A stretch of 64,000 nucleotides of DNA from Ostreococcus lucimarinus (lineage: Eukaryota): the NCBI GenBank assembly GCA_000092065.1, contig CP000598.1; one strand, 5' to 3'. Both the position numbers and the translations under genes were made by a program. This document shows positions 22,125 through 60,559 of the stretch, piece after piece. How positions within the stretch are numbered: position 1 is the stretch's first letter; each line of letters starts with the position of its first letter. The notes under the pieces are model-generated. The model worked only from the letters and a program-made list of their open reading frames with translations, was not told the origin of the DNA and ran no database searches.

Positions 22125-22161
22125 TAAGATTTCTCCAGAACGAATCGTGTGAGTGAAGTGG

Positions 22162-23611: not shown

Positions 23612-23688
23612 CGATGGGTCGCGCCCGCCGATATAACGCCGGCGTTTCGGACACGATCTTGAAAACAAGCACTGGTTGACTTGATTGA

Positions 23689-41548: not shown

Positions 41549-41764
41549 GGTGCATGTATGTGACTTGAACCACTTAAATCGAGGACGTTACCTTCGTCGA
41601 CGGTGCGTCCTCGATCGAGCCCCCGAGTGCGGCAACGCGACCGCAGGTCCGCCACTTCGCGGCGTCAACTTGACGCGCGAGAGTCGAAGAATAAGCGCTT
41701 CACGCGTATCGATCGTTGTGTGAGGTAGTGGCTTAAACAGAAGACCAGGTGCGCTGGCAACTGA

Positions 41765-43761: not shown

Positions 43762-44137
43762 CGCGAAAGTCGGCGCGTGTGCTTTCGGCGCGTCGTCTGC
43801 TGTTCGATCGCCCGGTTGGTCAACGCGCAGGTGTGAAGAACCGCGACGTCCATGGTTTTTTCACCCGAGCGGCGAGCGTTAACGCTCAGCTTCCGATCAT
43901 GAGCATTAATCCGTCGTGCGCATGCGAATGCCGTCTCAAAGTGGAGGCGTGGTATCTACATTCCGACTGGTTAAACGTGCCGCCGACTCGTAATTCGAGT
44001 CACGTATCATCGGCCTTTTTTTCTTCTCTCAGCAAGGGCGTGCAAGGCACGTCAGTCGACGACGATCGTTTTAAAAAACCGCACACTGCGCACGCGTGCA
44101 TGCCACTAAATCTCTATCTTCGAAGCCGCGCGCGCGC

Positions 44138-45181
44138 ATGGGATCGCGTAAGCAACGCGTCGCCGTTGTCCTGGCGCTCGTTGCCCTCGTCGCTGGAGGT
44201 GGACTAGTGAAACAGCTGGACACGCGCGGGTGTTCGAAAGATACTTCAGCCGCGACGGTAAGTGGCGCTTCGTCATCAGCTCAACCACGCTCGACGGGAG
44301 CTGAATCGCGAGACAATAAACGCGAGACGCCACCTATCGATGCTGTCTCCGCGACGAAGATTGATGATCGAGCTGAAAAGTACGCTATAATCGTCCCTAT
44401 GCACGCCGTCACGCAGCTCGAAGTCATGAAAACCACGTGGAAAATATTTCCACCTTGCGCTGCCGATGCGCGAGCCGCACAAATAATTGATTTGATTTTC
44501 TTATCCGACGTAGACCTCTCGTCGCTCGACGTCACAGGGGGTCACTGCTTTCAGCGAGTGTATCGCCTGCGACCGTTCATCCCGAGCTGCTACAACGTAT
44601 ACGCACAAGCACCACCGTATTGCTTCTTCACGATGATACTTCATCTCGACTTAGACCGTACGTACGACGCCATACTTCAAGTAGAAGCTGATTCCGTGCC
44701 CGTGAAATCCAATTGGTTGGACGCCGCCGTGGAAAACATATTAAAGCCGACATCGGGCGAAGTGTGGATACACGCAGCGAAAAATGAACGCGGTGGAAAC
44801 AATTTCAACGGTAATGGCGCGTACAACTTGCAAAATGACGAATTTCGTCAATTCATAATAGGTTACAGGGAATGGTTTTACACAAAGGCGGTCAACTCTG
44901 GCGACACGGCGTTCGATACAAACATGATTACGTTTGCAAAAGAAGTGGGGTCTTTCGGAAATTTCTCCAACACGCATCTGCGTGCGTCGAAAAGTCTTCG
45001 GAACTGCGATCTCATGTCCCTGACAGCGTGTCGGTCGGCGGTGGATGCGTCCACGTGGGGCGGCGCGACGCCTGAAGCTCTTTTCGTTCACAGTCACGAT
45101 CTGAAAGATCCTTCGCGAGTGAGGAGTCAAATCTTGGTGGAAATGCTTGGTAGAGACGATGGTATACGGCAATTCAAATGA
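44138..45181 (+). CDS. Type II membrane protein of unknown function (glycan-island context)
   Basis: ATG at 44138 gives MGSRKQRVAVVLALVALVAGGGLV (anchor), a Ser/Ala-rich stem, then a globular domain. No family recognised. Confidence 0.5.
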   Translation: MGSRKQRVAVVLALVALVAGGGLVKQLDTRGCSKDTSAATVSGASSSAQPRSTGAESRDNKRETPPIDAVSATKIDDRAEKYAIIVPMHAVTQLEVMKTTWKIFPPCAADARAAQIIDLIFLSDVDLSSLDVTGGHCFQRVYRLRPFIPSCYNVYAQAPPYCFFTMILHLDLDRTYDAILQVEADSVPVKSNWLDAAVENILKPTSGEVWIHAAKNERGGNNFNGNGAYNLQNDEFRQFIIGYREWFYTKAVNSGDTAFDTNMITFAKEVGSFGNFSNTHLRASKSLRNCDLMSLTACRSAVDASTWGGATPEALFVHSHDLKDPSRVRSQILVEMLGRDDGIRQFK

Positions 45182-45976: not shown

Positions 45977-46127
45977 GAATCAGTAAGATCCGTGTTCATG
46001 CCTAGAGATTTGAGCGCTCGGTGACAGCGGCAGCTTCCTGAAACGCTCCTCCAGACCCGGACGAGAGCGAGCCGTGAAGCCGTGCGCAAAAGTTCGGCGG
46101 TCGTCGATAGGTCTGGCAACGTCGGTC

Positions 46128-47060
46128 ATGCGTTGGTTGAGGGGACGTGGTGTCAAGGCGATAATGTGCGTCGCCCTTGTCGCAGGTTTCGCCAAGGTAC
46201 CAGATCTGCACGTCAATAAGTATACTATGACACAGACACTGCAAGGCGACGGCTTTGGTTCACAGTTTCAAAATATCACATCTACCGCGGCTGCTCTGCA
46301 CGTCAATAAGTGTACTATGACACAGACACTGCAAGGCGACGGCTTTGGTTCACAGTTTCAAAATATCATATCTACCGCGGTTTTCGCTCAAACCTTGAAC
46401 AAACACTTTTGCGTGACCCCTATCGAAAGCATGGAGCACAACTACGACAATCGCTCAACGTTCCTTCGAGAAGTCAGCGAACTGATTAATTTACCAGTAC
46501 TTTCAAGTCAAGAGGACATGGACATTGAAAAGTGCGAGGTTAAAAAAGGCTGGCTGGATAGCTACATAGTTCAGGAAGCAAATCAGTTGGACGTTCGTAC
46601 AAAATTGGGTAACATTCGAAAGCAGTTCTTGGGTAACAAGCGCTCGTTGTCGGAACTTCGTAAACACGCTGCCGTGCACATCAGGAGGCAGAATTCTTTT
46701 GATAATCGAAACACTGTTTCTCATGATGAAGTCGTGTGCTTTGTGATGAGGGAAATTCTCACTCAAAACAGCAATATTCAGTTTCATGTATTTAGCCAGG
46801 GCGATATTTCGGAGTTTTGGCGCTACCAGAACGATTCAAGAATCGTCCTACGTCTCGACGAACCCATCAACGTGACGTTCACTGAAATGGTTGTCGCCAA
46901 AATTTTGGTCACAGCCACGTCGTCATTTAGCTATGCAGCAGCACTTCTCTCAGAGGGTGAGATATGGGCCCCAAGACCGTTCTGGCACAACTACCCTTCC
47001 TTCTGGAAGACATATCAGCTTTCTCGTACATTGTCTAACTTTGAGACATGCCTACCATGA
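46128..47060 (+). CDS. Fucosyltransferase-like glycosyltransferase (GT11/GT23-like motifs), tentative
   Basis: ATG at 46128 (MRWLRGRGVKAIMCVALVAGFA). GDGFGSQFQNI resembles the G-x-G-N-Q-x-F-Q motif and AAVHIRRQNSFD resembles the HxRRxD motif of alpha-1,2-/NodZ-type fucosyltransferases. Confidence 0.4.
   Translation: MRWLRGRGVKAIMCVALVAGFAKVPDLHVNKYTMTQTLQGDGFGSQFQNITSTAAALHVNKCTMTQTLQGDGFGSQFQNIISTAVFAQTLNKHFCVTPIESMEHNYDNRSTFLREVSELINLPVLSSQEDMDIEKCEVKKGWLDSYIVQEANQLDVRTKLGNIRKQFLGNKRSLSELRKHAAVHIRRQNSFDNRNTVSHDEVVCFVMREILTQNSNIQFHVFSQGDISEFWRYQNDSRIVLRLDEPINVTFTEMVVAKILVTATSSFSYAAALLSEGEIWAPRPFWHNYPSFWKTYQLSRTLSNFETCLP
46206..46380 (+). repeat. In-frame 90-bp tandem duplication (2 units)
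   Basis: ctgcacgtcaataag.atactatgacacagacactgcaaggcgacggctttggttcacagtttcaaaatatca.atctaccgcgg occurs twice (starts 46206 and 46296), encoding LHVNK(Y/C)TMTQTLQGDGFGSQFQNI(T/I)STA. Confidence 0.9.
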
Positions 47061-48372: not shown

Positions 48373-49581
48373 CTACAACCCCTGGCAGAGCACTTGAGCA
48401 ACATGCCGCATGTGGCGAAATCGCATGTTCAAGAATAAATCGTCGGCGCAATCATGATTCAAACCTCTTGGGAGGTATTCAAAGCCCAACGAGGTGATAA
48501 AGTCGCGAAGTTCATGCTCGCCATGCTGATCAGCGTAGCCGGTAACCACTAGCTCCGGTTGAATCCAGACAACTCGTTTCGATAGCCAATGCCGAGCCCC
48601 TTTGATAATCTCTAAGTCATGGCCCTGTGCGTCAATCTTCAACATGTCGATATATTGGACGCGGCCACCTTGAACACCTAGAGACTCTGACTTTGGAACT
48701 GACACGGACCAAGGCAGAAGGGTAAAGAAATCATGAAGATTCCAAACAGGGACCTGAATTTCATTCTGCACGTCAAACTTGACCGGTTTGTGTAAGCTTG
48801 ATGTCCCTGGATCACCAGCGGTCGCGTAAAATGTCTGCAAGTGTAGAGGAGAAGAGCCCATCGCCACACAAGATAAAAAGTAGCGTTTGCCAACTAAGTC
48901 CAACGGCACACAGAGGTCTCCTGTGGAGCAAGCACAACCCTTCAGTATGTTCTTGCAACTTGTCGGATTAGGCTCAAACGCAAAAACTGTCAGCTGATCC
49001 GGATCGGAAGTGCTGCTGAACCATAAGGCGGAGTTTGGAGCGTTGTAAGACTCACCAATAGATATTTTCACACGCCGCGTATGCCTCGGCAGTGCAATTT
49101 TTCCACGCCGCAGGTGCACTGGAAGTAAGGCACGCGTGGCGTGACGAGTGCGCGAGATATCTTTGATACGTTCGGCCCCTACGAGTGGATCACTTTTTGG
49201 TTCTTCACAGCTACTCCCAAGTGAGTCGCTGTACGATTCAGTCACAGGAAGTCCGCGTGCTGACGCAAACGCAAGGAGTACGAGCGAACCCAGCGAACCG
49301 AGCAAACAGCCCGCAACCAACCTAAATTTCATACTGAATTTCATTCTGACAGGGACTCGCACGTTCTCGTGTCGCTTAAAGCCCGTATTTTGCTCCATCT
49401 CTTCGCGGTCTAAATACTGTATAAAGTGGGTGTGTAGTACGCTCTTTTCCGTTCTTCGGCCTGGGTGTTCAGTATGCTGTTTCCGGTCTTCAGTTTCTTC
49501 ATCTCGACGGCTTCGGGGCGACCACTTTGGCCGGCGACGAGTTTGCCCTGTACCATAGGACATCGTGGCCGCACACAGCAT
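48373..49581 (-). CDS. FkbM-family methyltransferase, second member
   Basis: ATG at 49581 verified; an alternative ATG at 49344 precedes the anchor MKFSMKFRLVAGCLLGSLGSLVLLAFA. VFAFEPNP and MLKIDAQGHDLEIIKGA are FkbM motifs. Confidence 0.7.
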   Translation of the reverse strand: MLCAATMSYGTGQTRRRPKWSPRSRRDEETEDRKQHTEHPGRRTEKSVLHTHFIQYLDREEMEQNTGFKRHENVRVPVRMKFSMKFRLVAGCLLGSLGSLVLLAFASARGLPVTESYSDSLGSSCEEPKSDPLVGAERIKDISRTRHATRALLPVHLRRGKIALPRHTRRVKISIGESYNAPNSALWFSSTSDPDQLTVFAFEPNPTSCKNILKGCACSTGDLCVPLDLVGKRYFLSCVAMGSSPLHLQTFYATAGDPGTSSLHKPVKFDVQNEIQVPVWNLHDFFTLLPWSVSVPKSESLGVQGGRVQYIDMLKIDAQGHDLEIIKGARHWLSKRVVWIQPELVVTGYADQHGEHELRDFITSLGFEYLPRGLNHDCADDLFLNMRFRHMRHVAQVLCQGL

Positions 49582-49806: not shown

Positions 49807-50080
49807 TAATTTTAGGGGGTCCTATTCCGACAACGCTATTCCGGCTATCTCTTTTGAAAAACTAGCGACGCGAAATGAAGACGCGCAGTCGCCCCACTAG
49901 TGCGCGTCACTTGTTGAACTCGTTCTTCACCGAACGGGGTTTTAAAGACGTACATGTGTCCTCAGGGAACCGCATGCGGATTGTCGTCGATCTCCTTTGA
50001 CCTCGGACGCTGAGGCCTCGGACCTTAAAGTCCCCGCTTCCGACGTAAAAAGTTCTGTCAGTGCGAGTTTTAGCCACGCT

Positions 50081-52366
50081 ATGAACTGGAGACTGAGTAT
50101 GTCGGAGTCGAAGTCGTTGTTGATTCTTCTCGTTGCATATGCATTTTGCAGCTCGACTCTCTTGATTCTCAATAAAGTTGCGTTGCAGACCATAAACTCG
50201 GGTACATTTTTGCTCCTACTACAGTGCGTGTTCACTTGTATGGCTCTTGGGACTCTCGACCATTTTGGATTTACTTCGGCTATTTCGCCTCTGGAGGCAG
50301 CCGAGCGCGAGCGATTTACTGTGGTGGTTGCCCTGTTCGTGACAACTCTATTTGCCAACATGAAATGTCTACAACTCGCAAACGTCGATACCGTTATCTG
50401 TATCCGCATGACGTGTCCTTTGTTAGTGAGTTTGCTCGATTATCTCTTTCTTGGAAGGGAGCTGCCCACTCGCACTTCAACCCTAGCATTGGTTGCAACT
50501 TGTGTGAGCTTTGCCTCATTTTTACTCGTTGAACAGAACTCTTCATGGATCACAATATTTTGGCTATCATTTTGGTACTGTGCTATGGTATTTGAGACCG
50601 TATTCGTCAAGTTTGTTGTCAGTGACTCGTCGCTTTCAACAGCGGCACAGTCCTTCTATCAAAATTTACTTGCGATCCCGGTGTTGACAGTGATATGGTT
50701 TTCCACAGAGATCCCAACTAGTGTTTTTGAACAAATTTCTTTGTCTACTTCGGAATTCTCCTTGGTTCTGTCCACTTGTATTCTCGGGTTAGGGATGAGC
50801 TACTTGTCGTTTGCTGTGCGTGAACGGGTATCGGCGACGAGCTTTTCAATGCTTGGTAATACGTGCAAGTTGATAACAATTCTAACGAATTATTTACTAT
50901 GGGAAAAACATGCTACAGGTGTTGGAACTTTTGCAGTCCTTTTCTGTCTTGCATCCAGTACCTTTTATCGCCAGGCGCCGTTGCGACATCCTATTAATCA
51001 TAAGGCGCAGTCATGGTTTCCCGCCCCTTGTACCATCAAGGCTACTGAAGAAGTCAATATGAGGATCATTGCAGCTGGGTTACTCGGTATCCTGGCGCTT
51101 GGCTTGCACTTTACTTCATATTTTCGTAGTTCTGTGAACTGGAACCTTGAAGAACAAACAGGTGTTTCTGGCGTTTCAGGAAAATTATTTACTGGTGCAC
51201 AAGTGCGGCAGTATTTTCCTTCGCATGACGATCGTCCTTCCAAGAAAAATCGTTCGACCTCTTCTCCCTTCTTTTCTGATCATATGTCTTGCGAAAATTG
51301 GGCCGTTTGTACCACCATCTTCGTCGAGTCAGACGCAGTGCGTGACGTTTGTAAAATACTACCGTCGTACTGCCTACTTGTCGTCGCAGATAAGAAAGGT
51401 CCACTAGAATACTTCATCGACGGGAACTGCACGTTCGCATACTTATCTGTAGAGCAACAAGAAGACATGTTAACAGACTCAGACTTCATCACAGAAACGC
51501 CGTGGAATCACTTTGGGCGGAAAAATCTAGGGTACTTGTTTGCAATAGCGAATGGTGCGAAGATGATATGGGATTTTGATGATGACAATCAAATAATCAG
51601 TTCAAAATTTTTTCTCGATCAGGCAGGAGAGCACCAACTAGTTACAGTCGAACCAATTACTTCGATGCTGAATCCTTACCCCTTACTTGGTGCCGAAAAG
51701 TTTTCCTGGCCTCGTGGTTTTCCACTCGACGGTATAAAAAACGAGGCATCACAACCAAGCGTTGACGATCTACGAGTTTCTGTCGTCGACTTCGAACGTG
51801 TCGGAGTACTGCAATCACTGGCGAATAATGATCCAGATGTTGATGCTATTTACAGGCTTCAGAGAGACCTGCCTTTCAGCTTCAAAGGCTGGTCGAGTCC
51901 TGCAAGTGTTTTCGTTTTGCCAGGCGCTTCTTTTGCTCCCTGGAATGCTCAAGCCACCCTTTTCAGGATGCGGGATGCACTCTGGGTTTCGTATTTACCT
52001 ATCTCTATTCATGGTAGGGTATCTGATATATGGAGATCATACATAGCGCAGCGACTTTTGCGGAACGTGTGTATTCACATCGCCTTCGCTGTGGAGCCAC
52101 TTGTTGTGCAACATCGAAATCAGCATTCCTACCTTGCCGATTTCGATGCGGAGCAAGATTTGTATTACAAATCAGGTAAACTGATCGAGCTTCTTGGAGA
52201 GTGGACCGCAAAATCTTCCTTTCCTCAAGAGCAGATTGTGGAGCTCTTCAGGATTCTGTATGAACATGATTATGTTGGAATCAAAGATGTTCGAATGATC
52301 GAACTCTGGATTTCAGAGCTCAACCGAGCGGGATACATCTTTCCAAAGAGCTGCAGTGTCCGCTAG
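50081..52366 (+). CDS. Single ORF fusing a TPT/GDP-sugar-transporter-like domain to a STELLO/DUF288-like glycosyltransferase domain
   Basis: ATG at 50081 (the track start at 49997 is TTG). The N-terminal half has ~9-10 helices (LLILLVAYAFCSSTLLILNKVAL, CIRMTCPLLVSLLDYLFLGRELP). The C-terminal half has NWAVCTTIF..LLVVADKKGP..NHFGRKNLGYLFAIANGAKMIWDFDDDN. An internal ATG at 51059 precedes a second anchor (MRIIAAGLLGILALGLHF). Confidence 0.7.
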   Translation: MNWRLSMSESKSLLILLVAYAFCSSTLLILNKVALQTINSGTFLLLLQCVFTCMALGTLDHFGFTSAISPLEAAERERFTVVVALFVTTLFANMKCLQLANVDTVICIRMTCPLLVSLLDYLFLGRELPTRTSTLALVATCVSFASFLLVEQNSSWITIFWLSFWYCAMVFETVFVKFVVSDSSLSTAAQSFYQNLLAIPVLTVIWFSTEIPTSVFEQISLSTSEFSLVLSTCILGLGMSYLSFAVRERVSATSFSMLGNTCKLITILTNYLLWEKHATGVGTFAVLFCLASSTFYRQAPLRHPINHKAQSWFPAPCTIKATEEVNMRIIAAGLLGILALGLHFTSYFRSSVNWNLEEQTGVSGVSGKLFTGAQVRQYFPSHDDRPSKKNRSTSSPFFSDHMSCENWAVCTTIFVESDAVRDVCKILPSYCLLVVADKKGPLEYFIDGNCTFAYLSVEQQEDMLTDSDFITETPWNHFGRKNLGYLFAIANGAKMIWDFDDDNQIISSKFFLDQAGEHQLVTVEPITSMLNPYPLLGAEKFSWPRGFPLDGIKNEASQPSVDDLRVSVVDFERVGVLQSLANNDPDVDAIYRLQRDLPFSFKGWSSPASVFVLPGASFAPWNAQATLFRMRDALWVSYLPISIHGRVSDIWRSYIAQRLLRNVCIHIAFAVEPLVVQHRNQHSYLADFDAEQDLYYKSGKLIELLGEWTAKSSFPQEQIVELFRILYEHDYVGIKDVRMIELWISELNRAGYIFPKSCSVR

Positions 52367-52743: not shown

Positions 52744-53988
52744 TCACTCTGGAAACAAGGTACGCGTTTTTCTTCTCCAGTGCTTCAAGATATCGGCAAT
52801 TGTGTTTGTGATGTTTGGGTCAGGAATCCACCCCGTCAGCTCTCGTATTTTCCTATTATCTGACAAAAGTATCTTCTCATCGTAAAGCCGCTCACGTGCA
52901 CCATCAAACAGCGTCGTGATGTCTGGTCTTGTTGACAGTGAAATCGCTGTGTCTAGGATGTCCTTCATTGAAAGTGCGATGCCACTACCGATGTTGTACG
53001 ACTCTCCAGGCTCTCCAAGGTCTACAAGTTTCGTTACCACTCGTGCAGAATCGCGGAGGTCAGTTATGTCCCTTTTTGTGGTAATGCGCCCATGTCTCAC
53101 CACTGGGCTTTGCAATCCGAGCTCGATCATTGCTATCTGCCGACAAAACTCTTGAGGTGCGAGACTCTCAGTCCCACCCGCTGAAACTTGGATAAAAAAT
53201 CGAGCGGTGACGACGTGCATGCCGTGGCTGTGCACATATTGCTGAGCAAGTAGGTCTGCTGCAACCTTGCTTACTCCATAAGGAGACACGGGCGCCAATG
53301 GTGCTTCTTCAGGTATGGCCCCTTCCCACGTATCAGCAGTTTTTCCATATTCTGTGCTTGAACCAGCCAGCAGAAAGCGCGTTTTGTTGGAGAGTCCTGC
53401 AAATCGCACTGCTTCTAGCATGTTGAAGGTGCCTTTGATGTTGGTATCTAAAGTCAGCTCAGCGGAGTCATATGAAACCCCGTTGATTGCTTGTGCAGCA
53501 AAATGGAAAATAACTGTTGGGCAGATTTCTGCGACCACCTGTTTGACACGAGTTCCGTCCAGAATGTCTCCACGAACGAGCTGTATGTTGTTCAATTCGC
53601 CTGCCAAATTTGACAGGTCAGATCGGTATCGCACAAGACCGTGAACCTCATACTTTCCTTCCTGTATCAACTGTTTCACAACGTAGCTGCCTATCATTCC
53701 AGACACACCTGTCACGAGAGCTCTTGGTCTTGCAGATAGAGCACTCAAGCAAGGCGTGTAATCTTTACTCTTTGCATTAAGATTTGTAGCAAAAGAGGAT
53801 TCCTCACGGTACATATGAGTTTTTGAAGGTTGAACATTGTATCGTGAAGTAACCGGGCTTGAAAGTCCTGATTTGAATTGCACAGCCTGATATGACGGAT
53901 GTAACACAACAGCTGCTAAAACAAACGATGAAACAGCCAATATTCGTGCAGTCTTTCCCAGCGTGTGCTTGAAGCGACTGTCGCGCAT
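52744..53988 (-). CDS. Membrane-anchored NAD-dependent sugar epimerase/dehydratase (extended SDR)
   Basis: ATG verified. Anchor ILAVSSFVLAAVVLH. ALVTGVSGMIGSYVV (GxxGxxG). SPYGVSKVAADLL (YxxxK). GSSTEYG. Confidence 0.8.
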   Translation of the reverse strand: MRDSRFKHTLGKTARILAVSSFVLAAVVLHPSYQAVQFKSGLSSPVTSRYNVQPSKTHMYREESSFATNLNAKSKDYTPCLSALSARPRALVTGVSGMIGSYVVKQLIQEGKYEVHGLVRYRSDLSNLAGELNNIQLVRGDILDGTRVKQVVAEICPTVIFHFAAQAINGVSYDSAELTLDTNIKGTFNMLEAVRFAGLSNKTRFLLAGSSTEYGKTADTWEGAIPEEAPLAPVSPYGVSKVAADLLAQQYVHSHGMHVVTARFFIQVSAGGTESLAPQEFCRQIAMIELGLQSPVVRHGRITTKRDITDLRDSARVVTKLVDLGEPGESYNIGSGIALSMKDILDTAISLSTRPDITTLFDGARERLYDEKILLSDNRKIRELTGWIPDPNITNTIADILKHWRRKTRTLFPE

Positions 53989-54210: not shown

Positions 54211-54254
54211 GTCATGATTGGTCGTTGTGCAGCATTGAGTCATGATTCGTCGTT
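54211..54254 (+). promoter_or_regulatory. Two copies of the motif GTCATGATT(G/C)GTCGTT, also found upstream of genes at 15066 and 18177
   Basis: 54211-54226 and 54239-54254. Related copies at 14820-14835 (gtcatgattggtcgtt) and 17956-17971 (gtcgtgactcgtcgtt). All lie 206-259 bp upstream of an ATG. Confidence 0.4.
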
Positions 54255-54469
54255 TTACCCCTCCCAAACGTTGGCGGTATTTAGCCAGATCCGAATGTAC
54301 ACAGTCAGACGGTCGCTCTTGGGTCATGACTTGTCAAATGGGCTCAAAAACTCGCCCCGGCCGTGATCACCACAATGCCCTGACGCTCACTTTTTCGCTC
54401 AAAACGCTATCCTATGCCAAACGATGCCCGCACAACGGAGGACGCAGTCAAACGACTACAAACACTAGC

Positions 54470-55663
54470 ATGGCGTCCGTAGCGTCCGTTATCGCCGCCA
54501 AGCGCGCTGGCTTCATCGGTATGGGTCGTCTGGGATTGTGTACCGCCCTCAAGTTTGAGCAAGCGGGTTGGGATGTCTGTGGGTCTGACGTCTTTCCGTC
54601 GTACGTTGAAAGTATCAACGACAAGAGTCTTCGAAGCAAAGAGCCCGGAGTCGAAGAGGCTTTGCGAAAGAGCACGCGTTTGCGAGCGACTCTGAATCTC
54701 CTTGATGTCCTAGAGCATGCCGATATCGTTTTCATTCTCGTCGCGACTCCAACCAGCGCGGGCGAAGAGGCCTACGACACGACAACTCTGAGCAGGGTCT
54801 TGAGTGATATCGCTAAATTAAGGCCGACAAACAAACACATCGTGATTTGCTGCACAGTGTTGCCTGGTTACATCTCGAACATCGGTAGTTACCTTATCGA
54901 AAGTTGCACTGGATGTAGTTTGAGTTACAATCCAGAGTTCATCGCCCAGGGTGAGATCATGAAGGGCCTCAGTGAACCCGACGTGGTGCTCATAGGGGAA
55001 GGAAGCGAAGAAGCCGGTGATATTCTACAGTTTTTATACGAGACCGCGACGTCCAATGAGCCTCGGATCTGTCGCATGTCTCCGCAAAGCGCTGAGATAA
55101 TGAAACTAAGCGTAAACTGCTTTGTTACCACGAAGATCAGCTTCGCCAATATGATTGGTGACATTGCTGACGCGACGCCTGGTGCAGACAAATTCGACAT
55201 CCTTAGAGCCGTTGGTCAGGATACACGTGTCGGCCACCGGTGCATCCTTCCAGGTTACGGCTTCGGAGGTCCTTGCTTTCCACGTGATAATAGAGCACTC
55301 GGAATGTACGCACGCAAGGTTGGAATCACTCCTTCAATTTGCGACGCGACGGATGAATACAACCGACTTCACGCGGACGCCATGGTAAAGGCTCTTTTGG
55401 AACAAAAACTAGAGCATTATACCATCAGTGATGTTGCTTACAAGCCACAGTGTCCGGTGGATATTATTGAAGAGTCGCAACCACTCGAAGTGGCCAAGAG
55501 ACTTGTTCAAGCAGGCAAGCGAGTCGTTATACGCGATCGACCCGCCATCATCGAGCTCGTACGCCGCGCTTACGGGCGTATGTTTACCTACGGAGCATAC
55601 AAAGTACCTAACGAAGAACCAAATACTTCTGCTGGCAACCCGTTATCAAGCTACGCGAGGTAA
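54470..55663 (+). CDS. Nucleotide-sugar 6-dehydrogenase (UDP-glucose / UDP-ManNAc dehydrogenase family)
   Basis: ATG at 54470 verified (MASVASVIAAKRAGFIGMGRLG, Rossmann GxGxxG). NPEFIAQG. Catalytic-Cys motif GFGGPCFPRDN. Confidence 0.85.
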   Translation: MASVASVIAAKRAGFIGMGRLGLCTALKFEQAGWDVCGSDVFPSYVESINDKSLRSKEPGVEEALRKSTRLRATLNLLDVLEHADIVFILVATPTSAGEEAYDTTTLSRVLSDIAKLRPTNKHIVICCTVLPGYISNIGSYLIESCTGCSLSYNPEFIAQGEIMKGLSEPDVVLIGEGSEEAGDILQFLYETATSNEPRICRMSPQSAEIMKLSVNCFVTTKISFANMIGDIADATPGADKFDILRAVGQDTRVGHRCILPGYGFGGPCFPRDNRALGMYARKVGITPSICDATDEYNRLHADAMVKALLEQKLEHYTISDVAYKPQCPVDIIEESQPLEVAKRLVQAGKRVVIRDRPAIIELVRRAYGRMFTYGAYKVPNEEPNTSAGNPLSSYAR

Positions 55664-56440
55664 GCTCAACCATGTTCACGTTTCAACGCTGTCACCAACT
55701 CACCGCGTGTCTGATGCGCTGGTGGCCAGATCTTTTGATTTAATATCTATCCATGATATAATCACAGATCTTTCACATCTTAGCCACCGTGCTCGTCGTT
55801 TCCTCGGATCTCGCACGAAGTTGAGATAAATTTCATGTATAAATTACTCACCCTAATATCATACTGCATACACTTTAAGTGCGTCGATAAAGAGCTTTGA
55901 GGTCGTGACAACGGCTGGAATCTACGAACCTGTTTCACGCATCAAAGTCCACCATGCTTTGAACCCTGCGGTTTGTGGCGCGTGATGAGCAAGTAGCAAG
56001 TGCCACCCAAACCTGCGTTCTATGGTGCGCACGAGAGCATCCGGCATAGCCGCGAACCACGGCTCTTTTTTGTATGTGTACGATGTATATGATTTGTATG
56101 TGTATGATTTGTTCGGGCGTTTTTTCCTTCGACTAATTTTGTCATCATCATCGAAACGGAACGTTTAATTCGAGCTCTCCACATTTTAGGGCTAATTTTG
56201 GGAAAAGTGTGACTGTCCATGTATAGACACAACACCAAACTCGATTAAAAAGCTCCTCAAAAAATGTGCGGGAATTGTCTCGAGTGTGTGGCGCTTGCGA
56301 TTGTGGCACGCGTTGAAGCGACTCGCGGTACGGCACGTACGTAGTCTTGAACACGAATATATGTGAATACGATTCACGTTCGAACGCTCTTGGAGTTGCG
56401 CTTCGACATGCTACTGAAAGTAGCTTGCGATTCCGGTACT

Positions 56441-57961
56441 ATGGCTCGCCGAACGGTCATTCTGTTTGCGGTTGTGGCCGTGTTGCTTTGGAGACTGTTC
56501 TTGTTCGATATTGGTGACAGCAGATTTAAAAGTATCACACCACATCCATCACCGGAGCAAAGACGACAACAAAATCACCGAGCAAGATTTTTAGAGCTCA
56601 CACATAACGAAACCTACAAAACCGCAAATGTCGAAGAGAGGAACGATGAACATTTCAAGATGGAACGATATGAAGAATCACCTGCAAGATTACAAGCGTC
56701 AGCTAATTTGGATACACAGAGCACCCGCGTCTTGGTTTTAAGTTGGCATGGTGGTACCGCGAAAGACACAGCGATGCAACTTCATAACGCTGGAGTTCGT
56801 CGCGAAAATATCGTGTGTGGAGGCATTATTTGGTACGAGAAAGTCCTCGATTCTGCTCCTTGCGTAAGAGATCATGCATTATCTGAGGCTTTGAATCGAT
56901 TGACACAGCGTGTAAGAGGTTTTCCCATGGCTATCGATCCAGCAGACGAGAAATGGTTGGATGATTTCGCAGCTGAGGCTAGCGAGATGCTATCTACGTT
57001 CCATGTGCTCTGGGCGGACTTTCCTACCGCCCTTTGTCTTCTATTAAACAAGATTGCCCCACATAAATTGATAGTACGCACAACGCATCGTTTTGATCAC
57101 CAGGTGGCTCATTCGAAGATAAATCACACGTCATTTGTACGTAAAAGCCTCATGCGCGTTCTACGCGAGGCGCCAATACTTCTTGCTGGGAGCGAGTACG
57201 ATCGGGCATACATGAAGTTCTACACATGTCGTGAACCTGAACGTCTATTCATAACATGGCCAACACAGTATTTGGAGAGTTTGGGCGCATCGCGTACACT
57301 TACGAACGAGTCATGCTTCATCTTGTGGGGGGGGTCGAACAACGAAGGTAGTTCAAGCATATCGATTACATTTGATAGAATACGAGTCCTCGGGCGCACT
57401 ATGGAGTCACAAGTTCCCATGAAAAGTCGCCCAACGAGTTTTGCTCACGCTTCGGAATTTGCAACAGAGCAAGCCGTAGTATATTTCCCATACAGTATGC
57501 CGAGTTCCGCATTTCATGAACTTTACGCGAGTGGTGTCCCCCTTTTCGTGCCATCGTTGACTTTCATGCTCGATGAGTTTTCAAAAAACCGTGGCTATCC
57601 TCACAAAGTAGCTGGTAATGTCCCTTGTGCTTCACCATCTTTTTACGAAAACGCTGAGGCAGTGGAGTTCTGCTGTCTTGACGATACTGGGGTATGTCAT
57701 GATCCAAATTCATGCGATCCTGAAGCGCTGAAACAATGGGTATCATTAGGTGACCTTTACACCACCCCGCATGTGACGTATTTCGACAGTGCCGAGCATG
57801 CTGTGGAACTCATGAGCAACTGGATGAAGCATCCAGACCAACGGGATCGAACGATCGAGGACATGGAGTCACACAACGTTGCTAACCTTCGATGGAATGC
57901 TCGTGTCGTTCAAGCCGCAATTCGTCATGTCAAACAAAGCAGCGCGCTTGAACTGGATTGA
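56441..57961 (+). CDS. Type II membrane protein, putative GT-B-fold glycosyltransferase
   Basis: ATG at 56441 (MARRTVILFAVVAVLLWRLFLF). The C-terminal AVVYFPYSMPSSAFHELYASGVPLFVPS resembles the GT1/GT4 E-x7-E region. The assignment is weak. Confidence 0.45.
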   Translation: MARRTVILFAVVAVLLWRLFLFDIGDSRFKSITPHPSPEQRRQQNHRARFLELTHNETYKTANVEERNDEHFKMERYEESPARLQASANLDTQSTRVLVLSWHGGTAKDTAMQLHNAGVRRENIVCGGIIWYEKVLDSAPCVRDHALSEALNRLTQRVRGFPMAIDPADEKWLDDFAAEASEMLSTFHVLWADFPTALCLLLNKIAPHKLIVRTTHRFDHQVAHSKINHTSFVRKSLMRVLREAPILLAGSEYDRAYMKFYTCREPERLFITWPTQYLESLGASRTLTNESCFILWGGSNNEGSSSISITFDRIRVLGRTMESQVPMKSRPTSFAHASEFATEQAVVYFPYSMPSSAFHELYASGVPLFVPSLTFMLDEFSKNRGYPHKVAGNVPCASPSFYENAEAVEFCCLDDTGVCHDPNSCDPEALKQWVSLGDLYTTPHVTYFDSAEHAVELMSNWMKHPDQRDRTIEDMESHNVANLRWNARVVQAAIRHVKQSSALELD

Positions 57962-58094
57962 AAATGCTGGTCGATACAAAGAAGCTGTGGGGGCGATACT
58001 TTGGACATCGTATTCAATATCTTACTTGGCGTACCTCGCCATGTAGAGTCTCACGCCTAGCGTATGTACGCGAAGTGAAAATAGATTTGAGTTT

Positions 58095-58766
58095 TCATTT
58101 AGTGTAACTCGATAGCGGGTTTTCCATGGTGGTGTTCGGGATGGGCGCTACTCCCCCTGCCGTAGTATCGCATATTTCGTAATCGAACAACTGCCCGTAC
58201 GTTCCTCGCACTAAGTGAACAATCGCCACCCGGTCGAAAACTGTCACTTTCTTCCCCCGTCGCACGAGTCGTTTCGCGATTTCGAGCAGCTGGGACTCTT
58301 CGATGATATCCACAGGACAATTCGATTCATATGCGACGTAGGATACCTTACACCTATCGAGATCTAGCCAGGTAACACCGTGCCTCAAATCATCAAGTGT
58401 TTGTTCTCGGGGTTCAAGTCGCTAATATCACTCAAAAAACCGACTGAGCGCGCTTGTGTCGTACGCTTGATCTCCAGAGTCAGTGGGCGTGGCGACGAGG
58501 ATGAAGACCATATCGACGCGATCGATCACTTCACGCAGCTTTAAAGTTGCGCGCAGATGTTTGCTCGATCGAAGCGCTTCCTCGACTCTTGGCTCAGTCA
58601 AACGAAGCGTGATTTCGTTGATGCTGTCCACGTGCGCCGGAAAGACATCCGAACCAACGATATCCCAATCAGCTTGTTCACACTTGAGAGCCGTACATAG
58701 TCCGAGTCGGCCCAGACCGACGAATCTGGCGCGCGTTGTTTGCAAGATCGATCGAGTGGTAGCCAT
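58095..58766 (-). pseudogene. Internally deleted copy of the 54470..55663 dehydrogenase, inverted orientation
   Basis: N-terminal part: MATTRSILQTTRARFVGLGRLGLCTALKCEQADWDIVGSDVFP..ILVATPTDSGDQAYDTSALSR, then a stop. C-terminal part (58095-58388): VAYESNCPVDIIEESQLLEIAKRLV..NPLSSYTK. The central ~240 codons, including the catalytic Cys, are absent. Confidence 0.8.
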
Positions 58767-59010: not shown

Positions 59011-59600
59011 ATGCGCGAGTCGAATGAGTTCGTGAAAACGTTTTACGATGATCGCCCTTGTAACATTCGGCTCGAAGGAATACTTTGAAGAAGTGACGCG
59101 GCGTAAATATTTCGTCGAGAACCACACTTTGGCATTCGCAAGTCTCGACGCGTACGAAAACAATCTGTTCTCGAGGTTGGTTGCGGTATAGGGACCGCGA
59201 CACAAAGTTTTACTGAAGCTGGCGCGGTTTACACAGGCATCGACGTTTCCTTGCGAAGTGTAGAACTCGCTGAGAAGCGACTCAAACTGTTCAAACTCAA
59301 TGGTGAGGTGCGCGTTGCAGATATACAGACCGATGAATTCATGCACGACCATTTTGATCCTCTTTTTAGTTTCGGAGTTCTGCATCACATCGCCGATGTA
59401 CAACCCGCCGTGAAGGATATTTCATGACTCTCAAACCGGGAGGCGAGTGCAAGCTGATGATGTACGCAAATAATTCTTGGAAAAAAACTTGGAAAAAGAC
59501 TTTCGTCGACTCGGGATTGGACCAATTTGAACCACAATCTGGAGTTCCAATCACTCACACTTACAAAGCCAGTGTCGTGCAATCATCAAGCTCGTTTGTG
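59011..59600 (+). pseudogene. Class I SAM-dependent methyltransferase (type 11-like) with several frameshifts and a truncated 3' end
   Basis: The pieces lie in four frames. In order: MRESNEFVKTFYDDRP; SKEYFEEVTRRKYFVENHTLAFASLDAYENN; SVLEVGCGIGTATQSF..SFGVLHHIADVQPAVKDIS; FMTLKPGGECKLMMYANNSWKK. It runs into the 3' end of the convergent dehydratase gene. Confidence 0.6.
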
Positions 59601-60559
59601 AAATCAAACTCGAGCGATCGTCGTCGACCGTCCGCGCTCGCCGAAGGGTGCGGGCGCAACGCAGGTGAGAATTCGCCCCAGTAGGCGCTCAAGTCGTTAT
59701 TCGAGTACCAACGCACGGTTTCCGCGAGACCGACGTCCCAGGACTTTTCTTGTCGCCATCCGAGCGCTAAAAGCTTTGAGCAATCGATGAAATATCTTCG
59801 GTCGTTGAAGGCTCGATCGCTCACGTGCTCGATGGTCGTTTCCGGGTCGCGATCGAGGAGCTTACAGACATCCCGAGCGACGGACAAGATCGTCCGCTCT
59901 TCGCGCGAGCCGATGTTATAAATCTGCGCCGTCGTCCCGCGGTGGAGAATGACATCGAACGCCGAAGACGCATCGTCAACGTGCATGTACGAACGCGTCG
60001 CGTCGCCGTCGCCGTGTATCGAAATCTTTTCCCCGCGTTTCGCGAGGATTGAAAACTTTGGAATCGCCTTCTCTGGATACTGATTCGGCCCATACACGTT
60101 GTTTCCGCGAGTGATGATGTACGGTAGTCCGTACGAGCGTCCATACGCCATGACGAGCATCTCCGCGCCCGCCTTGGTCGCGGCGTACGGGTTGGTGGGC
60201 GTCAGGAGCGACGCGTGCTCGGTGTTTGAATCCATGAGATTTTCCCCGTATACCTCATCCGTGGACACGTGCAGGAATCGTCGAATTTCGGTCTTCTGCG
60301 CTCGCACGCACGCCTCGAGTAACGCGTGCGTGCCCTCGATGTTATTCTTCGTGAACTCGTACGAGTTCCCGAAAGAGTTGTCCACGTGACTCTGCGCGGC
60401 GAAGTGCATGACGGTGTCGATGCGCTCGCTTTGCAAGACGTAACTCAATAAATCGAACGAACGCACATCGCCCTTGACGAACCGCACGTTCGCGCATTCT
60501 TTCGCGCGCTCGAGATTTTTCAAGCTCGAGCAATAGTCGAGCTTGTCCAGGATGACAAT
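59561..60559 (-). CDS. UDP/dTDP-glucose 4,6-dehydratase (RHM/RfbB-like), exon 2
   Basis: IVILDKLDYCSSLKNL..HFAAQSHVDNSF..VSTDEVYGE..PTNPYAATKAGAEMLV..GDGDATRSYMHVDD. The frame is continuous with the track ORF 59561..60523. Confidence 0.9.
   Translation of the reverse strand: MVILDKLDYCSSLKNLERAKECANVRFVKGDVRSFDLLSYVLQSERIDTVMHFAAQSHVDNSFGNSYEFTKNNIEGTHALLEACVRAQKTEIRRFLHVSTDEVYGENLMDSNTEHASLLTPTNPYAATKAGAEMLVMAYGRSYGLPYIITRGNNVYGPNQYPEKAIPKFSILAKRGEKISIHGDGDATRSYMHVDDASSAFDVILHRGTTAQIYNIGSREERTILSVARDVCKLLDRDPETTIEHVSDRAFNDRRYFIDCSKLLALGWRQEKSWDVGLAETVRWYSNNDLSAYWGEFSPALRPHPSASADGRRRSLEFDFTNELDDCTTLAL

What the first reader, a model, noticed from the sequence alone, without database searches (positions are those of the whole stretch)
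50081..52366. Nucleotide-sugar-transporter domain and STELLO/DUF288 glycosyltransferase-like domain in one 762-codon ORF
- The N-terminal ~330 residues look like a TPT/GDP-sugar transporter.
- After the last helix, the ORF continues without a stop into a second anchor (ATG at 51059, MRIIAAGLLGILALGLHF).
- It then continues into a DUF288 domain (RKNLGYLFAIANGAKMIWDFDDDN).
- Physical coupling of substrate import and transfer would be a neat channeling device; I am not aware of it as a described architecture.
- The internal ATG also allows two products from one locus.
Basis: partly seen in the sequence, partly recalled or inferred. Interest (0 to 1): 0.6.

Follow-up and report, generated by a model that had tools for sequence, protein, structure and literature searches.

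The report
Sugar-nucleotide transporter fused to STELLO-like enzyme
A tiny marine green alga carries one gene that joins a Golgi importer of activated sugars to a sugar-handling enzyme sitting just inside the Golgi; the fusion is real, conserved and rare, it lies on the alga's virus-resistance chromosome, and a related fusion was already noted there in passing.

Summary
Window 50081-52366 (+) is one open frame of 761 codons plus a stop codon.

- **Source:** residues 7-299 are 100% identical to the Ostreococcus lucimarinus RefSeq model "GDP-mannose transporter, partial". That model sits on a 149-kb contig, the size of the small outlier chromosome, and covers only the transporter half.
- **N-terminal half:** a 10-helix Vrg4-like GDP-sugar transporter.
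- **Link:** an 11th helix, the retained signal anchor, carries the chain into the lumen.
- **C-terminal half:** a STELLO-like domain. Its closest solved relatives are the GT75 GDP-sugar pyranose/furanose mutase MtdL and rice UAM2.

The fusion is genuine. Five divergent loci (57% down to 31.5% identity) keep one uninterrupted frame across both halves. It is also rare: about 6-9 of the best 150 family representatives are fused. Close relatives exist as ordinary type II proteins.

The internal ATG at 51059 is not conserved, so two products are not supported.

The neighbouring membrane-anchored GDP-mannose-dehydratase-like gene is fused to a STELLO-like domain in another organism. This links the two genes functionally.

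Whether the lumenal domain transfers a sugar or rearranges one is open. A transporter-GT92 fusion on the O. tauri outlier chromosome was noted in 2016, so this is a new variant, not a new kind.

The parts
50081..52366 (+). Whole fused gene: 761 codons plus a stop codon. An alternative start is Met7 at nt 50099, which public gene calls and RefSeq use.
   Evidence: The ORF is. It is 100% identical to P0001. Residues 7-299 equal XP_001422304.1 of O. lucimarinus CCE9901. The frame is kept uninterrupted across both halves in five divergent loci.
50099..50977 (+). 10-helix SLC35/DMT nucleotide-sugar transporter domain (residues 7-299), Vrg4-like, probably specific for a GDP-sugar.
   Evidence: - Pfam EamA 36.2 bits.
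- The alignment profile matches Vrg4 at E 1.3e-17.
- Foldseek target TM-score 0.78-0.79 to Vrg4 structures 5oge/5ogk.
- Ten helices appear in the AlphaFold model and in hydropathy.
- FYQN (192-195) aligns with the Vrg4 guanine motif FYNN. GNTCK (259-263) aligns with GALNK (motif roles from PMC6789118).
50978..51055 (+). Short linker (residues 300-325), net positive charge, inferred to be cytosolic.
   Evidence: The sequence is. Its length is conserved and its sequence is variable across fusions. The side of the membrane is inferred from the known cytosolic C-terminus of 10-helix nucleotide-sugar transporters and from the positive-inside rule.
51056..51124 (+). 11th transmembrane helix (about residues 326-348): the retained type II signal anchor of the enzyme half. 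The internal ATG at 51059 lies here.
   Evidence: Kyte-Doolittle peak 1.76 at 329-347. AlphaFold helix 316-351. A hydrophobic segment is present at this place in all fusions. It corresponds to the N-terminal anchor of the stand-alone relatives P0012, P0014, P0015 and P0020. Met327 is not conserved.
51125..51292 (+). Lumenal stem (residues 349-404) holding the conserved motif VSGVSGKLFTGAQVR (residues 362-376, nt 51164-51208).
   Evidence: pLDDT is below 50 for residues 351-367 and rises to about 86 over 371-380. The motif is conserved in fused and unfused relatives and at the junction of the dehydratase fusion P0040.
51293..52363 (+). Lumenal STELLO-like, GT75-related nucleotide-sugar enzyme domain (residues 405-761).
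- DxD motif: D500-D502, nt 51578-51586.
- R545, in WPRGFPL: nt 51713-51715.
- DPDVD: residues 584-588.
- The Pfam STELLO match covers residues 646-756, nt 52016-52348.
   Evidence: - Pfam STELLO 72 bits.
- Foldseek best hit is MtdL (7xpu), E 1.9e-14, target TM-score 0.77. Rice UAM2 (8cid) also matches.
- The alignment profile matches MtdL at E 1.6e-22.
- Residue mapping uses together with PMC9937993.
52744..53988 (-). Convergent neighbour: a membrane-anchored SDR of 414 aa with an N-terminal hydrophobic anchor. Its best family match is GDP-mannose 4,6-dehydratase. It is probably functionally linked to the fusion.
   Evidence: Pfam GDP_Man_Dehyd 8.9e-63. NCBIfam best match is gmd at 2.5e-38, far below the equivalog cut-off. 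The anchor is at residues 10-31. It is 49% identical to the N-terminal half of P0040, whose C-terminal half is a STELLO-like domain.
48373..49581 (-). Divergent neighbour: an FkbM-type methyltransferase with a membrane anchor. This is context only; the linkage is not conserved in relatives.
   Evidence: Pfam Methyltransf_21 7.1e-09. Anchor at residues 88-106. No counterpart next to the fusion in L001, L010, L012, L013 or L014.

Best explanation
This is one gene of Ostreococcus lucimarinus, on the small outlier chromosome. It encodes a single Golgi membrane protein of about 85 kDa with 11 transmembrane helices.

**How it most likely works**
- The first ten helices form a Vrg4-type antiporter. 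It imports a GDP-sugar from the cytosol, in exchange for GMP.
- The chain then re-crosses the membrane through an 11th helix. This helix is the signal anchor of a former type II Golgi protein.
- It ends in a lumenal, Mn2+/DxD-dependent, GT75-related STELLO-type domain that uses the imported GDP-sugar.
- Most likely this domain transfers the sugar to a lumenal acceptor or to its own Arg545, as proposed for plant STELLO. The sugar may first be modified by the neighbouring lumenal GDP-mannose-dehydratase-like enzyme.

**What the fusion achieves**
- It places importer and consumer in the same cisterna in a 1:1 ratio.
- It makes a portable one-gene glycosylation cassette on a chromosome that shuffles glycan genes and is tied to virus resistance.

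**Shown here:** single conserved reading frame, both folds, motif conservation, and the helix count behind the topology.

**Inferred:** Golgi location, GDP-sugar identity, transferase rather than mutase chemistry, and any kinetic channelling.
For: **One gene**
- The frame is open in 0 of 2000 shuffles.
- One uninterrupted match spans both halves in five loci, down to 31.5% identity. There are six more full-span representatives.
- GC and GC3 are alike in both halves.

**Origin by fusion with a type II protein**
- Stand-alone relatives at 56-60% identity start with Met, a short tail and an anchor, followed by the same SGVSGxLF motif.

**Topology**
- There are 10+1 helices.
- The linker is net positive and the lumenal flank net negative.
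- The STELLO domain was shown experimentally to be lumenal in Arabidopsis (PMC4906169).

**GDP-sugar theme, from four sides**
- The closest solved transporter is Vrg4. The guanine-selecting Asn of FYNN is kept in FYQN195, and Lys of GALNK is kept as K263.
- The closest solved enzyme is the GDP-sugar mutase MtdL. Its guanine-binding Asp40 is kept as the invariant D437.
- The neighbouring SDR matches GDP-mannose dehydratase best.
- The related transporter P0039 is fused to a GT37-like domain, a family annotated as fucosyltransferases. That hit is weak and below Pfam's cut-off.

**Active-site residues, invariant in the fusions**
- DxD 500-502, R545, D586, Q624, R646, D649, R679 and H682.
- The two Asp motifs correspond to the ones needed for STELLO function in planta.

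**Functional link to the neighbour**
- P0040 fuses a 49%-identical SDR to a STELLO-like domain in one frame.

**Context**
- The outlier chromosome is enriched in glycosyltransferases, methyltransferases, epimerases and sugar transporters. A transporter-GT92 fusion there rises by log2 6.6 in virus-resistant O. tauri.
Against: - There is no transcript or protein evidence. I could not tell whether the gene-sized Logan contigs come from RNA. Their ends fall in the flanks partly by selection, because only contigs holding the whole gene were retrieved.
- No member of the STELLO family has a demonstrated biochemical activity.
- The sugar-discriminating GALNK motif is changed to GNTCK, so the sugar is unknown.
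- Three residues important in MtdL are replaced family-wide: D87 to F478, S228 to A623, and the Mn ligand H287 to Q677. Metal binding and chemistry may therefore differ from both models.
- The closest solved relatives are mutases, not transferases.
- The SDR adjacency is not conserved in five other loci.
- pTM is 0.69, so the model says little about how the two halves pack.
Confidence: 0.6

Rival explanations
1. Same fused protein, but the lumenal domain is a nucleotide-sugar pyranose-to-furanose mutase of the GT75 type, like MtdL, Hyg20 and plant UAM. It would act in the Golgi lumen. The importer delivers a GDP-pyranose, possibly first made 6-deoxy by the neighbouring lumenal SDR. The domain converts it, through an Arg545-sugar adduct, into the rare GDP-furanose donor for other transferases.
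For: - The best structural and sequence matches are MtdL and rice UAM2.
- The autoglycosylated catalytic Arg159, D195, Q229, R257, D260, R289, H292 and the DxD are all conserved.
- In other organisms the domain is fused to a nucleotide-sugar-modifying SDR (P0040). It is also fused to a weakly GT2-like domain in P0008 and P0013. That order suits a make-then-transfer line for an unstable furanose donor.
- Canonical GT75 is reported missing from prasinophytes, although they have GT77 arabinosyltransferases (PMC3797821).
Against: - MtdL D87 and the Mn ligand H287 are replaced by invariant Phe and Gln, and S228 by Ala, across the whole STELLO-like family. D87N abolishes MtdL activity, and H287 is not conserved in the inactive AtRGP5.
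- In Arabidopsis STELLO the equivalent Arg (R271A) is dispensable, while the DxD motifs are required.
- No Pfam RGP/GT75 match was found even at E up to 10.
- A mutase releases no GDP, so it would not feed the antiporter with GMP.
Confidence: 0.2
2. The locus gives two proteins. One route is an internal promoter or translation start at ATG 51059, producing a stand-alone type II STELLO-like enzyme alongside the full-length protein. The other is cleavage of the fusion after helix 11, so that transporter and enzyme work as separate molecules.
For: - Met327 sits exactly where stand-alone relatives begin their cytosolic tail and anchor. It is also present in the 80%-identical relative P0002.
- The RefSeq curators modelled only the transporter half.
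Against: - Met327 is absent from all eight other aligned fusions. The protein has 15 Met in 761 residues, so one near the anchor is unremarkable.
- Selection has kept the frame open through the linker at 31-57% identity. That would not be needed for two independent products.
- None of the retrieved contigs starts near nt 51000. This is weak evidence.
Confidence: 0.1
3. The lumenal domain is catalytically dead. It would serve as a nucleotide-sugar or glycan sensor that regulates the attached transporter, or as a scaffold that recruits other Golgi enzymes, much as plant STELLO binds cellulose synthase.
For: - The Mn-ligand His and two sugar-pocket residues of the characterised relatives are replaced.
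- Plant STELLO acts through protein-protein contacts with CesA.
- No activity is known for the family.
Against: - The DxD, the catalytic Arg, the general-base Asp and the phosphate-binding Arg/His are invariant over 30% sequence divergence.
- DxD mutations abolish STELLO function in planta.
Confidence: 0.07
4. Artefact: two adjacent genes that happen to lie in one frame in this strain, or an assembly error, with no fused protein in nature.
For: The RefSeq annotation lists only a partial transporter.
Against: - The same sequence was recovered at 99.7-100% identity in eight independent public assemblies.
- The fusion is conserved as one frame in five divergent loci and in several 50%-identity clusters.
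- The frame is open in 0 of 2000 shuffles.
Confidence: 0.02

Closest known systems
[quoted passage not shown] 2016, PMC5082852)
   Same: Both are a TPT/EamA-type sugar-nucleotide transporter and a glycosyltransferase-type domain in one gene, on the small outlier chromosome of an Ostreococcus species, among clustered sugar-modifying genes.
   Different: The enzyme half there is GT92; here it is the GT75-related STELLO type. The O. tauri case was mentioned in one sentence and one table row, with no analysis of topology or distribution. I did not have its sequence, so homology between the two transporter halves is untested.
Arabidopsis STELLO1/2 (DUF288, Pfam PF03385; Zhang et al. 2016, PMC4906169)
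   Same: - The Pfam match is above threshold.
- A membrane anchor directly precedes the domain.
- The DxD and DVD motifs needed for STELLO function are present: DFDDDN 498-503 and DPDVD 584-588.
- The Arg equivalent to the RGP self-glycosylation site is present.
   Different: - Here the anchor is the 11th helix of a transporter, not the N-terminus.
- Only the first 111 of 387 Pfam positions are present, so the long plant C-terminal region is missing.
- The plant role is assembly of rosette cellulose synthase complexes. That cannot apply in a wall-less prasinophyte, because rosette CesAs are unknown outside charophytes and land plants.
GT75 NDP-pyranose mutases: MtdL and Hyg20 (GDP-L-Gal/GDP-L-Fuc) and plant UAM/RGP (UDP-Ara) (PMC9937993)
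   Same: They share the fold (Foldseek target TM-score 0.77, E 1.9e-14) and are detectable by sequence (profile E 1.6e-22). The DxD, catalytic Arg, D195, Q229, R257, D260, R289, H292 and the guanine-binding D40 are conserved.
   Different: D87 becomes Phe, S228 becomes Ala, and the Mn ligand H287 becomes Gln, all family-wide. This protein is membrane-tethered and lumenal, not soluble. There is no Pfam RGP match.
Yeast and fungal GDP-mannose transporter Vrg4 (SLC35; PDB 5oge, 5ogk, 9s35)
   Same: Both have the 10-helix fold (target TM-score 0.78-0.79). Y28, the bulky residue at position 281, the second Asn of FYNN and the Lys of GALNK are all kept.
   Different: FYNN is FYQN and GALNK is GNTCK. 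Pairwise identity is about 20%. This protein carries a 460-residue C-terminal extension with an extra helix and an enzyme.
Non-covalent transporter-glycosyltransferase assemblies in mammalian Golgi (SLC35A3 with MGAT1-5; PMC6453868)
   Same: The idea is the same: importer and consumer of a nucleotide sugar are held together in the Golgi membrane (abstract).
   Different: There the partners are separate proteins detected by proximity assays. Here the link is covalent and genetically fixed.

Membership tests
SLC35/DMT nucleotide-sugar transporter (Vrg4-like GDP-sugar clade) | Ten transmembrane helices in the DMT 5+5 fold | tested here: met
   The AlphaFold model has ten helices between residues 7 and 293. 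Foldseek target TM-score to Vrg4 is 0.78-0.79 over about 290 columns. Hydropathy agrees.
SLC35/DMT nucleotide-sugar transporter (Vrg4-like GDP-sugar clade) | Significant sequence match to the family | tested here: met
   Pfam EamA scores 36.2 bits against a cut-off of 28.2 when the N-terminal part is scanned alone. The alignment profile matches Vrg4 at E 1.3e-17. Stand-alone relatives P0032 and P0035 match Pfam TPT.
SLC35/DMT nucleotide-sugar transporter (Vrg4-like GDP-sugar clade) | Guanine-recognition motif FYNN on TM7 and sugar/phosphate motif GALNK on TM9 | tested here: inconclusive
   FYQN195 aligns with FYNN221, and the selectivity-determining second Asn is kept. GNTCK263 aligns with GALNK289, and only Gly and Lys are kept. 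This fits a GDP-sugar but leaves the sugar open.
SLC35/DMT nucleotide-sugar transporter (Vrg4-like GDP-sugar clade) | GDP-sugar/GMP antiport activity | not testable with these tools
   This needs proteoliposome transport assays or complementation of a yeast vrg4 mutant.
STELLO / DUF288 (Pfam PF03385) | Pfam match above the gathering score | tested here: met
   72.2 bits against a cut-off of 27.8, but only profile positions 1-111 of 387 are matched (residues 646-756). The plant-type C-terminal two thirds are absent.
STELLO / DUF288 (Pfam PF03385) | GT75-related region with the two Asp motifs required in planta (DD205-206 and DVD297-299 of STL1) | tested here: met
   DFDDDN 498-503 and DPDVD 584-588 are invariant in nine fusions and nearly so in 39 relatives.
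STELLO / DUF288 (Pfam PF03385) | Membrane anchor followed by a lumenal catalytic domain (type II orientation) | tested here: inconclusive
   The anchor lies directly upstream of the domain, and the helix parity (10+1) predicts a lumenal domain. The orientation itself is inferred, not measured.
STELLO / DUF288 (Pfam PF03385) | Interaction with cellulose synthase and a role in assembling its complex | not testable with these tools
   This is unlikely to apply. Prasinophytes are regarded as wall-less, and rosette CesAs are confined to charophytes and land plants.
GT75 NDP-pyranose mutase / reversibly glycosylated polypeptide | GT-A-like fold with the GT75 core and helix domains | tested here: met
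   Foldseek to MtdL: E 1.9e-14, target TM-score 0.77. To rice UAM2: E 5.6e-08.
GT75 NDP-pyranose mutase / reversibly glycosylated polypeptide | Autoglycosylated catalytic Arg (MtdL R159) and general-base Asp (D260) | tested here: met
   R545 in WPRGFPL and D649 in GRVSDIW are both invariant.
GT75 NDP-pyranose mutase / reversibly glycosylated polypeptide | Mn2+ ligand His287, and sugar-pocket residues Asp87 and Ser228 | tested here: not met
   These are aligned with Q677, F478 and A623, which are conserved as such across the STELLO-like family. D87N abolishes MtdL activity, and H287 is not conserved in the inactive AtRGP5.
GT75 NDP-pyranose mutase / reversibly glycosylated polypeptide | Match to the family's sequence model (Pfam RGP) | tested here: not met
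   No RGP match was listed for the C-terminal part even at E up to 10. It is related to GT75 but not filed as a member.
Transporter-glycosyltransferase single-gene fusions of Mamiellales outlier chromosomes | A TPT/EamA-type transporter and a GT-type domain in one reading frame | tested here: met
.
Transporter-glycosyltransferase single-gene fusions of Mamiellales outlier chromosomes | Location on the small outlier chromosome | tested here: met
   The protein is 100% identical to the O. lucimarinus CCE9901 protein on a 149,386-bp contig. The outlier chromosome, number 18, is given as 150 kb. The window's gene content matches it: methyltransferases, glycosyltransferases, epimerases, sugar transporters and a DUF285 surface-repeat protein.

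The most novel reading that the evidence does not exclude
The lumenal domain is a GDP-sugar pyranose-to-furanose mutase working inside the Golgi, covalently tied to its own importer. Together with the adjacent membrane-anchored GDP-mannose-dehydratase-like enzyme it would form a lumenal pathway: import, 6-deoxygenation or epimerisation, then ring contraction. The product would be a rare GDP-furanose donor for cell-surface glycans.

If true, this would:
- be the first nucleotide-sugar mutase placed in the secretory lumen;
- explain why prasinophytes seem to lack canonical GT75;
- assign a donor class (GDP-sugars) and a chemistry to the whole STELLO family, whose biochemical activity has been unknown since 2016;
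- tie a specific glycan feature to the virus-resistance chromosome.
Probability: 0.15. Interest if true: 0.8.

Novelty: new variant of a known kind. Interest (0 to 1): 0.5.

Why it matters
**Coupling of transporters and transferases.** Whether Golgi nucleotide-sugar transporters physically couple to the transferases they feed has been argued for years from proximity assays. A natural covalent fusion, conserved over deep divergence and with unfused sister genes at hand, allows a clean comparison of fused and split forms.

**Donor for the STELLO family.** Three observations point to GDP-sugars as the donor class:
- the Vrg4-type importer with a guanine motif;
- a GDP-mannose-dehydratase-like partner, adjacent here and fused elsewhere;
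- a conserved guanine-binding Asp.

This gives a concrete set of substrates to test on plant STELLO proteins, which regulate cellulose synthase assembly and have no known biochemistry.

**Virus resistance.** The gene sits on the hypervariable outlier chromosome, whose glycan genes are implicated in prasinovirus resistance. One-gene import-plus-use cassettes would be an efficient way to shuffle surface glycan traits.

**Annotation.** The RefSeq model of this gene holds only the transporter half.

Tried and rejected
- **Full-length Pfam scan.** It reported only STELLO. EamA appeared only when the N-terminal part was scanned alone. No TPT match was reported for this protein, only for the stand-alone relatives P0032 and P0035.
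- **NCBIfam on the fusion.** Nothing useful.
- **Gene-sized Logan contigs as transcript evidence.** Three start at the same base, 49833, and all end in the flanking intergenic regions. I could not establish that the runs are RNA. The retrieval also selects contigs that hold the complete gene, so I treat this as no more than suggestive.
- **Conserved neighbourhood.** None of the window's neighbours recurs next to the fusion in L001, L010, L012, L013 or L014.
- **Viral origin.** There is no relative in IMG/VR.
- **Prokaryotic origin.** The only hit is one 1.6-kb contig in a Bacteroidota MAG, probably eukaryotic contamination.
- **Source organism of the most distant fusion** (P0018, GCA_014466295.1). 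The accession appears in no searchable paper, and its cluster carries no name.
- **AFDB fold search** for the same architecture in UniProt. That library was not available.
- **Literature searches** for a described transporter-STELLO or transporter-GT fusion. They found only the O. tauri GT92 remark.
- **Chance-ORF artefact.** Considered and rejected.


Full report
**1. What is in the sequence**

The ORF listing shows one open frame at 49997..52366 on the + strand. The first ATG is at 50081, giving 761 codons plus a stop codon. Met327, at nt 51059, starts MRIIAAGLLGILALGLHF. Residues 480-503 read RKNLGYLFAIANGAKMIWDFDDDN. None of 2000 shuffles of the stretch keeps the frame open. GC and GC3 are alike in both halves.

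**2. Where it comes from**

- The protein is 100% identical to the public cluster representative P0001.
- One member of that cluster is XP_001422304.1, [quoted passage not shown]. It sits on a 149,386-bp contig.
- That model equals residues 7-299 of the window protein with no mismatch.
- Yau et al. 2016 give the O. lucimarinus small outlier chromosome as number 18, 150 kb. They count 11 methyltransferases, 8 glycosyltransferases, 6 epimerase/dehydratases and 4 sugar transporters on it (PMC5082852).

The window has this gene content:

| Coordinates | Strand | Gene |
|---|---|---|
| 1545-9368 | + | 2607-aa DUF285 repeat protein |
| 34624-37266 | + | DNA methyltransferase |
| 38819-39928 | - | FkbM methyltransferase |
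| 40226-41548 | - | GT17 |
| 41765-42787 | + | SLC35A-type transporter |
| 48373-49581 | - | FkbM methyltransferase |
| 52744-53988 | - | SDR |
| 54242-55663 | + | NDP-sugar dehydrogenase |
| 59561-60523 | - | dTDP-glucose-dehydratase-like SDR |

 The reference annotation therefore records only the transporter half of this gene.

**3. The two halves**

*N-terminal half*
- Scanned alone, residues 1-326 match Pfam EamA above threshold.
- A profile of nine fusions matches yeast Vrg4 at E 1.3e-17.
- The AlphaFold model (mean pLDDT 87, pTM 0.69) superposes on Vrg4 with target TM-score 0.78-0.79.
- In the pairwise alignment, FYQN (192-195) lies on the Vrg4 FYNN motif. The second Asn of that motif discriminates guanine from adenine.
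- GNTCK (259-263) lies on GALNK, whose Lys binds phosphate. Y20 and F255 match Y28 and Y281 (motif roles from PMC6789118).

*C-terminal half*
- Pfam STELLO scores 72 bits, but only profile positions 1-111 of 387 are matched.
- The best solved relatives are the GT75 GDP-sugar pyranose/furanose mutase MtdL and rice UAM2. Foldseek gives E 1.9e-14 and target TM-score 0.77 for MtdL; the sequence profile gives E 1.6e-22.
- Zhang et al. 2016 had already described STELLO as a GT75-related region plus DUF288. They showed it is lumenal and needs its two Asp motifs but not the RGP-like Arg (PMC4906169).

**4. Active-site mapping**

I used the HMMER alignments and the residue roles in PMC9937993.

| MtdL residue | Role | Window residue | Status |
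|---|---|---|---|
| D40 | guanine N1/N2 | D437 | conserved |
| D109-D111 / N112 | DxD motif | D500-D502 / N503 | conserved |
| R159 | autoglycosylated Arg | R545 | conserved |
| D195 | sugar pocket | D586 | conserved |
| Q229 | sugar and phosphate binding | Q624 | conserved |
| R257 | phosphate and sugar binding | R646 | conserved |
| D260 | general base | D649 | conserved |
| R289 | diphosphate binding | R679 | conserved |
| H292 | diphosphate binding | H682 | conserved |
| D87 | sugar pocket; D87N abolishes activity | F478 | replaced |
| S228 | sugar binding | A623 | replaced |
| H287 | Mn2+ ligand | Q677 | replaced |

The three replacements hold across 30 or more fused and unfused relatives, including animal and holozoan ones. 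They therefore mark the STELLO-like family as a whole. The domain is related to GT75 but fails three of its functional residues, and I do not file it as a GT75 mutase.

**5. One gene or two?**

- The nine-way alignment keeps the transporter, a short linker, a hydrophobic helix, the motif ISGVSGxLFxGxKxR and the enzyme domain in register.
- tblastn gives a single uninterrupted match across both halves in five separate loci: L010 57%, L014 50%, L012 45%, L013 33%, L001 31.5%.
- The exhaustive search of 1.84 billion representatives found 4818 relatives, 979 of them below E 1e-30. Among the best 150, six span both halves: P0003, P0066-P0069 and P0121. Two or three more cross the junction.

So the fusion is real, old or recurrent, and rare. 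Unfused relatives at 56-60% identity (P0012, P0014, P0015) and the more distant P0020 begin with Met, a short tail and a signal anchor, followed by the same SGVSG motif. The 11th helix is therefore the retained type II anchor.

Met327 is not conserved in any of the other eight aligned fusions. It recurs only in the 80%-identical P0002. The two-product idea is not supported, though it is not excluded.

**6. Topology**

The model and hydropathy give ten helices plus helix 316-351. Ten-helix nucleotide-sugar transporters have both termini in the cytosol; this is established knowledge for Vrg4 and the CMP-sialic acid transporter. One more helix then places the enzyme in the lumen. The linker is net positive and the lumenal flank net negative. 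This matches the measured orientation of plant STELLO. It remains an inference for this protein.

**7. Linked genes and related architectures**

- The convergent neighbour at 52744-53988 is an SDR with an N-terminal anchor. Its best family match is GDP-mannose 4,6-dehydratase, far below the equivalog cut-off.
- P0040, from a metagenome contig, joins a 49%-identical SDR to a 35%-identical STELLO-like domain in one frame, with no helix between them. That fits both parts being lumenal, and it links the two window genes functionally.
- The same transporter clade is also fused to other lumenal modules: a weakly GT37-like one (P0039), an unknown one (P0031), STELLO plus a weakly GT2-like domain (P0008), and STELLO plus an unknown 280-aa Cys-rich domain (P0017, P0018).
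- The neighbourhood itself is not conserved.

**8. Mechanism**

Best reading, confidence about 0.6 overall (my own estimates: about 0.9 for a single fused protein, and lower for the chemistry): a Golgi GDP-sugar/GMP antiporter covalently tethered to a lumenal DxD-dependent STELLO-type enzyme that consumes the imported donor. The donor may first be modified by the neighbouring SDR.

A transferase is favoured over a mutase, for three reasons:
- three MtdL residues are replaced;
- the plant R271A result;
- GDP release would feed the antiporter.

The mutase reading stays alive at about 0.2. The catalytic Arg and general base are invariant, and the domain is fused elsewhere to a nucleotide-sugar-modifying SDR and to a second GT-like domain.

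**9. Comparison with what is known, and novelty**

- Yau et al. [quoted passage not shown] It rises by log2 6.6 in virus-resistant lines. The general idea of a transporter-GT fusion on this kind of chromosome is therefore on record.
- I found no description of the transporter-STELLO combination, its topology, its distribution or its link to GDP-sugar enzymes.
- No relatives turned up in viral contigs. In prokaryotic genomes there was only one tiny, probably contaminant, contig.

I rate it a new variant of a known kind, with interest 0.5. It is a useful natural test case for transporter-transferase coupling and a lead to the unknown donor of the STELLO family. It is not a new principle.

Noticed in passing
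window 52744-53988 (-); L011 1-2627: The neighbouring GDP-mannose-dehydratase-like SDR carries an N-terminal membrane anchor and a stem of about 55 aa, so it is probably lumenal. To my knowledge that is unusual for GDP-sugar enzymes. In the metagenome contig L011 a 49%-identical SDR is fused in frame to a STELLO-like domain. The last third of that domain is shifted to another frame after a gap of about 250 nt, which suggests an intron or a frameshift.
   Followed up: partly
window 50099-50977, against RefSeq XP_001422304.1: The O. lucimarinus RefSeq protein, flagged "partial", stops at residue 299 (YRQA) of an ORF that continues for 462 more codons. The reference annotation therefore misses the enzyme half.
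   Followed up: yes
window 10191-14406 and 22125-26353: A 4.2-kb direct duplication at 98.8% identity. Each copy holds an ORF of 841 or 843 aa with no Pfam match.
   Followed up: partly
window 1545-9368 (+): A giant 2607-aa ORF made of DUF285 (BspA-like) repeats. It contains a perfect 822-bp internal duplication (1902-2723 = 2835-3656) and many 75-bp-register repeats.
   Followed up: no
L004 and L005, against window 52456 onward: Two environmental contigs are 99.8% identical through the gene. They diverge completely about 90 nt after the stop codon. This suggests structural polymorphism immediately 3' of the fusion in natural populations.
   Followed up: no
window 54242-55663 (+): An NDP-sugar dehydrogenase (UDP-glucose/GDP-mannose dehydrogenase family) with an 88-aa N-terminal extension and no predicted membrane helix. 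The first ATG may not be the real start.
   Followed up: no
window 38819-42787: A second small glycan cluster: an FkbM methyltransferase, a GT17 with a type II anchor, and an SLC35A-type nucleotide-sugar transporter. Here the transporter and the transferase are separate, divergently transcribed genes, in contrast to the fusion.
   Followed up: no
window 44096-45181, 46074-47060, 56363-57961: Three ORFs with a single N-terminal anchor and no Pfam match. They are possibly further type II Golgi enzymes of unknown family. The 46074 ORF contains a duplicated segment of about 29 aa (HVNK[YC]TMTQTLQGDGFGSQFQNI).
   Followed up: no
window 57820-58187 and 61458-61825: A 368-bp direct repeat at 97.6% identity. 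It overlaps the 3' end of the 56363-57961 ORF, and the two copies flank the dTDP-glucose-dehydratase-like gene (59561-60523).
   Followed up: no
L015 (Bacteroidota MAG contig, 1588 bp): This is the only hit in 185,579 prokaryotic genomes: a 40%-identical STELLO-like ORF on a 1.6-kb contig. It is most likely eukaryotic contamination of the MAG.
   Followed up: no
P0031, P0039, P0008, P0017, P0018 (relatives, not in the window): The same transporter clade is fused to at least four different lumenal modules: unknown, weakly GT37-like, STELLO plus weakly GT2-like, and STELLO plus a Cys-rich domain of about 280 aa. This suggests repeated use of the transporter as a membrane platform for Golgi enzymes.
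   Followed up: partly
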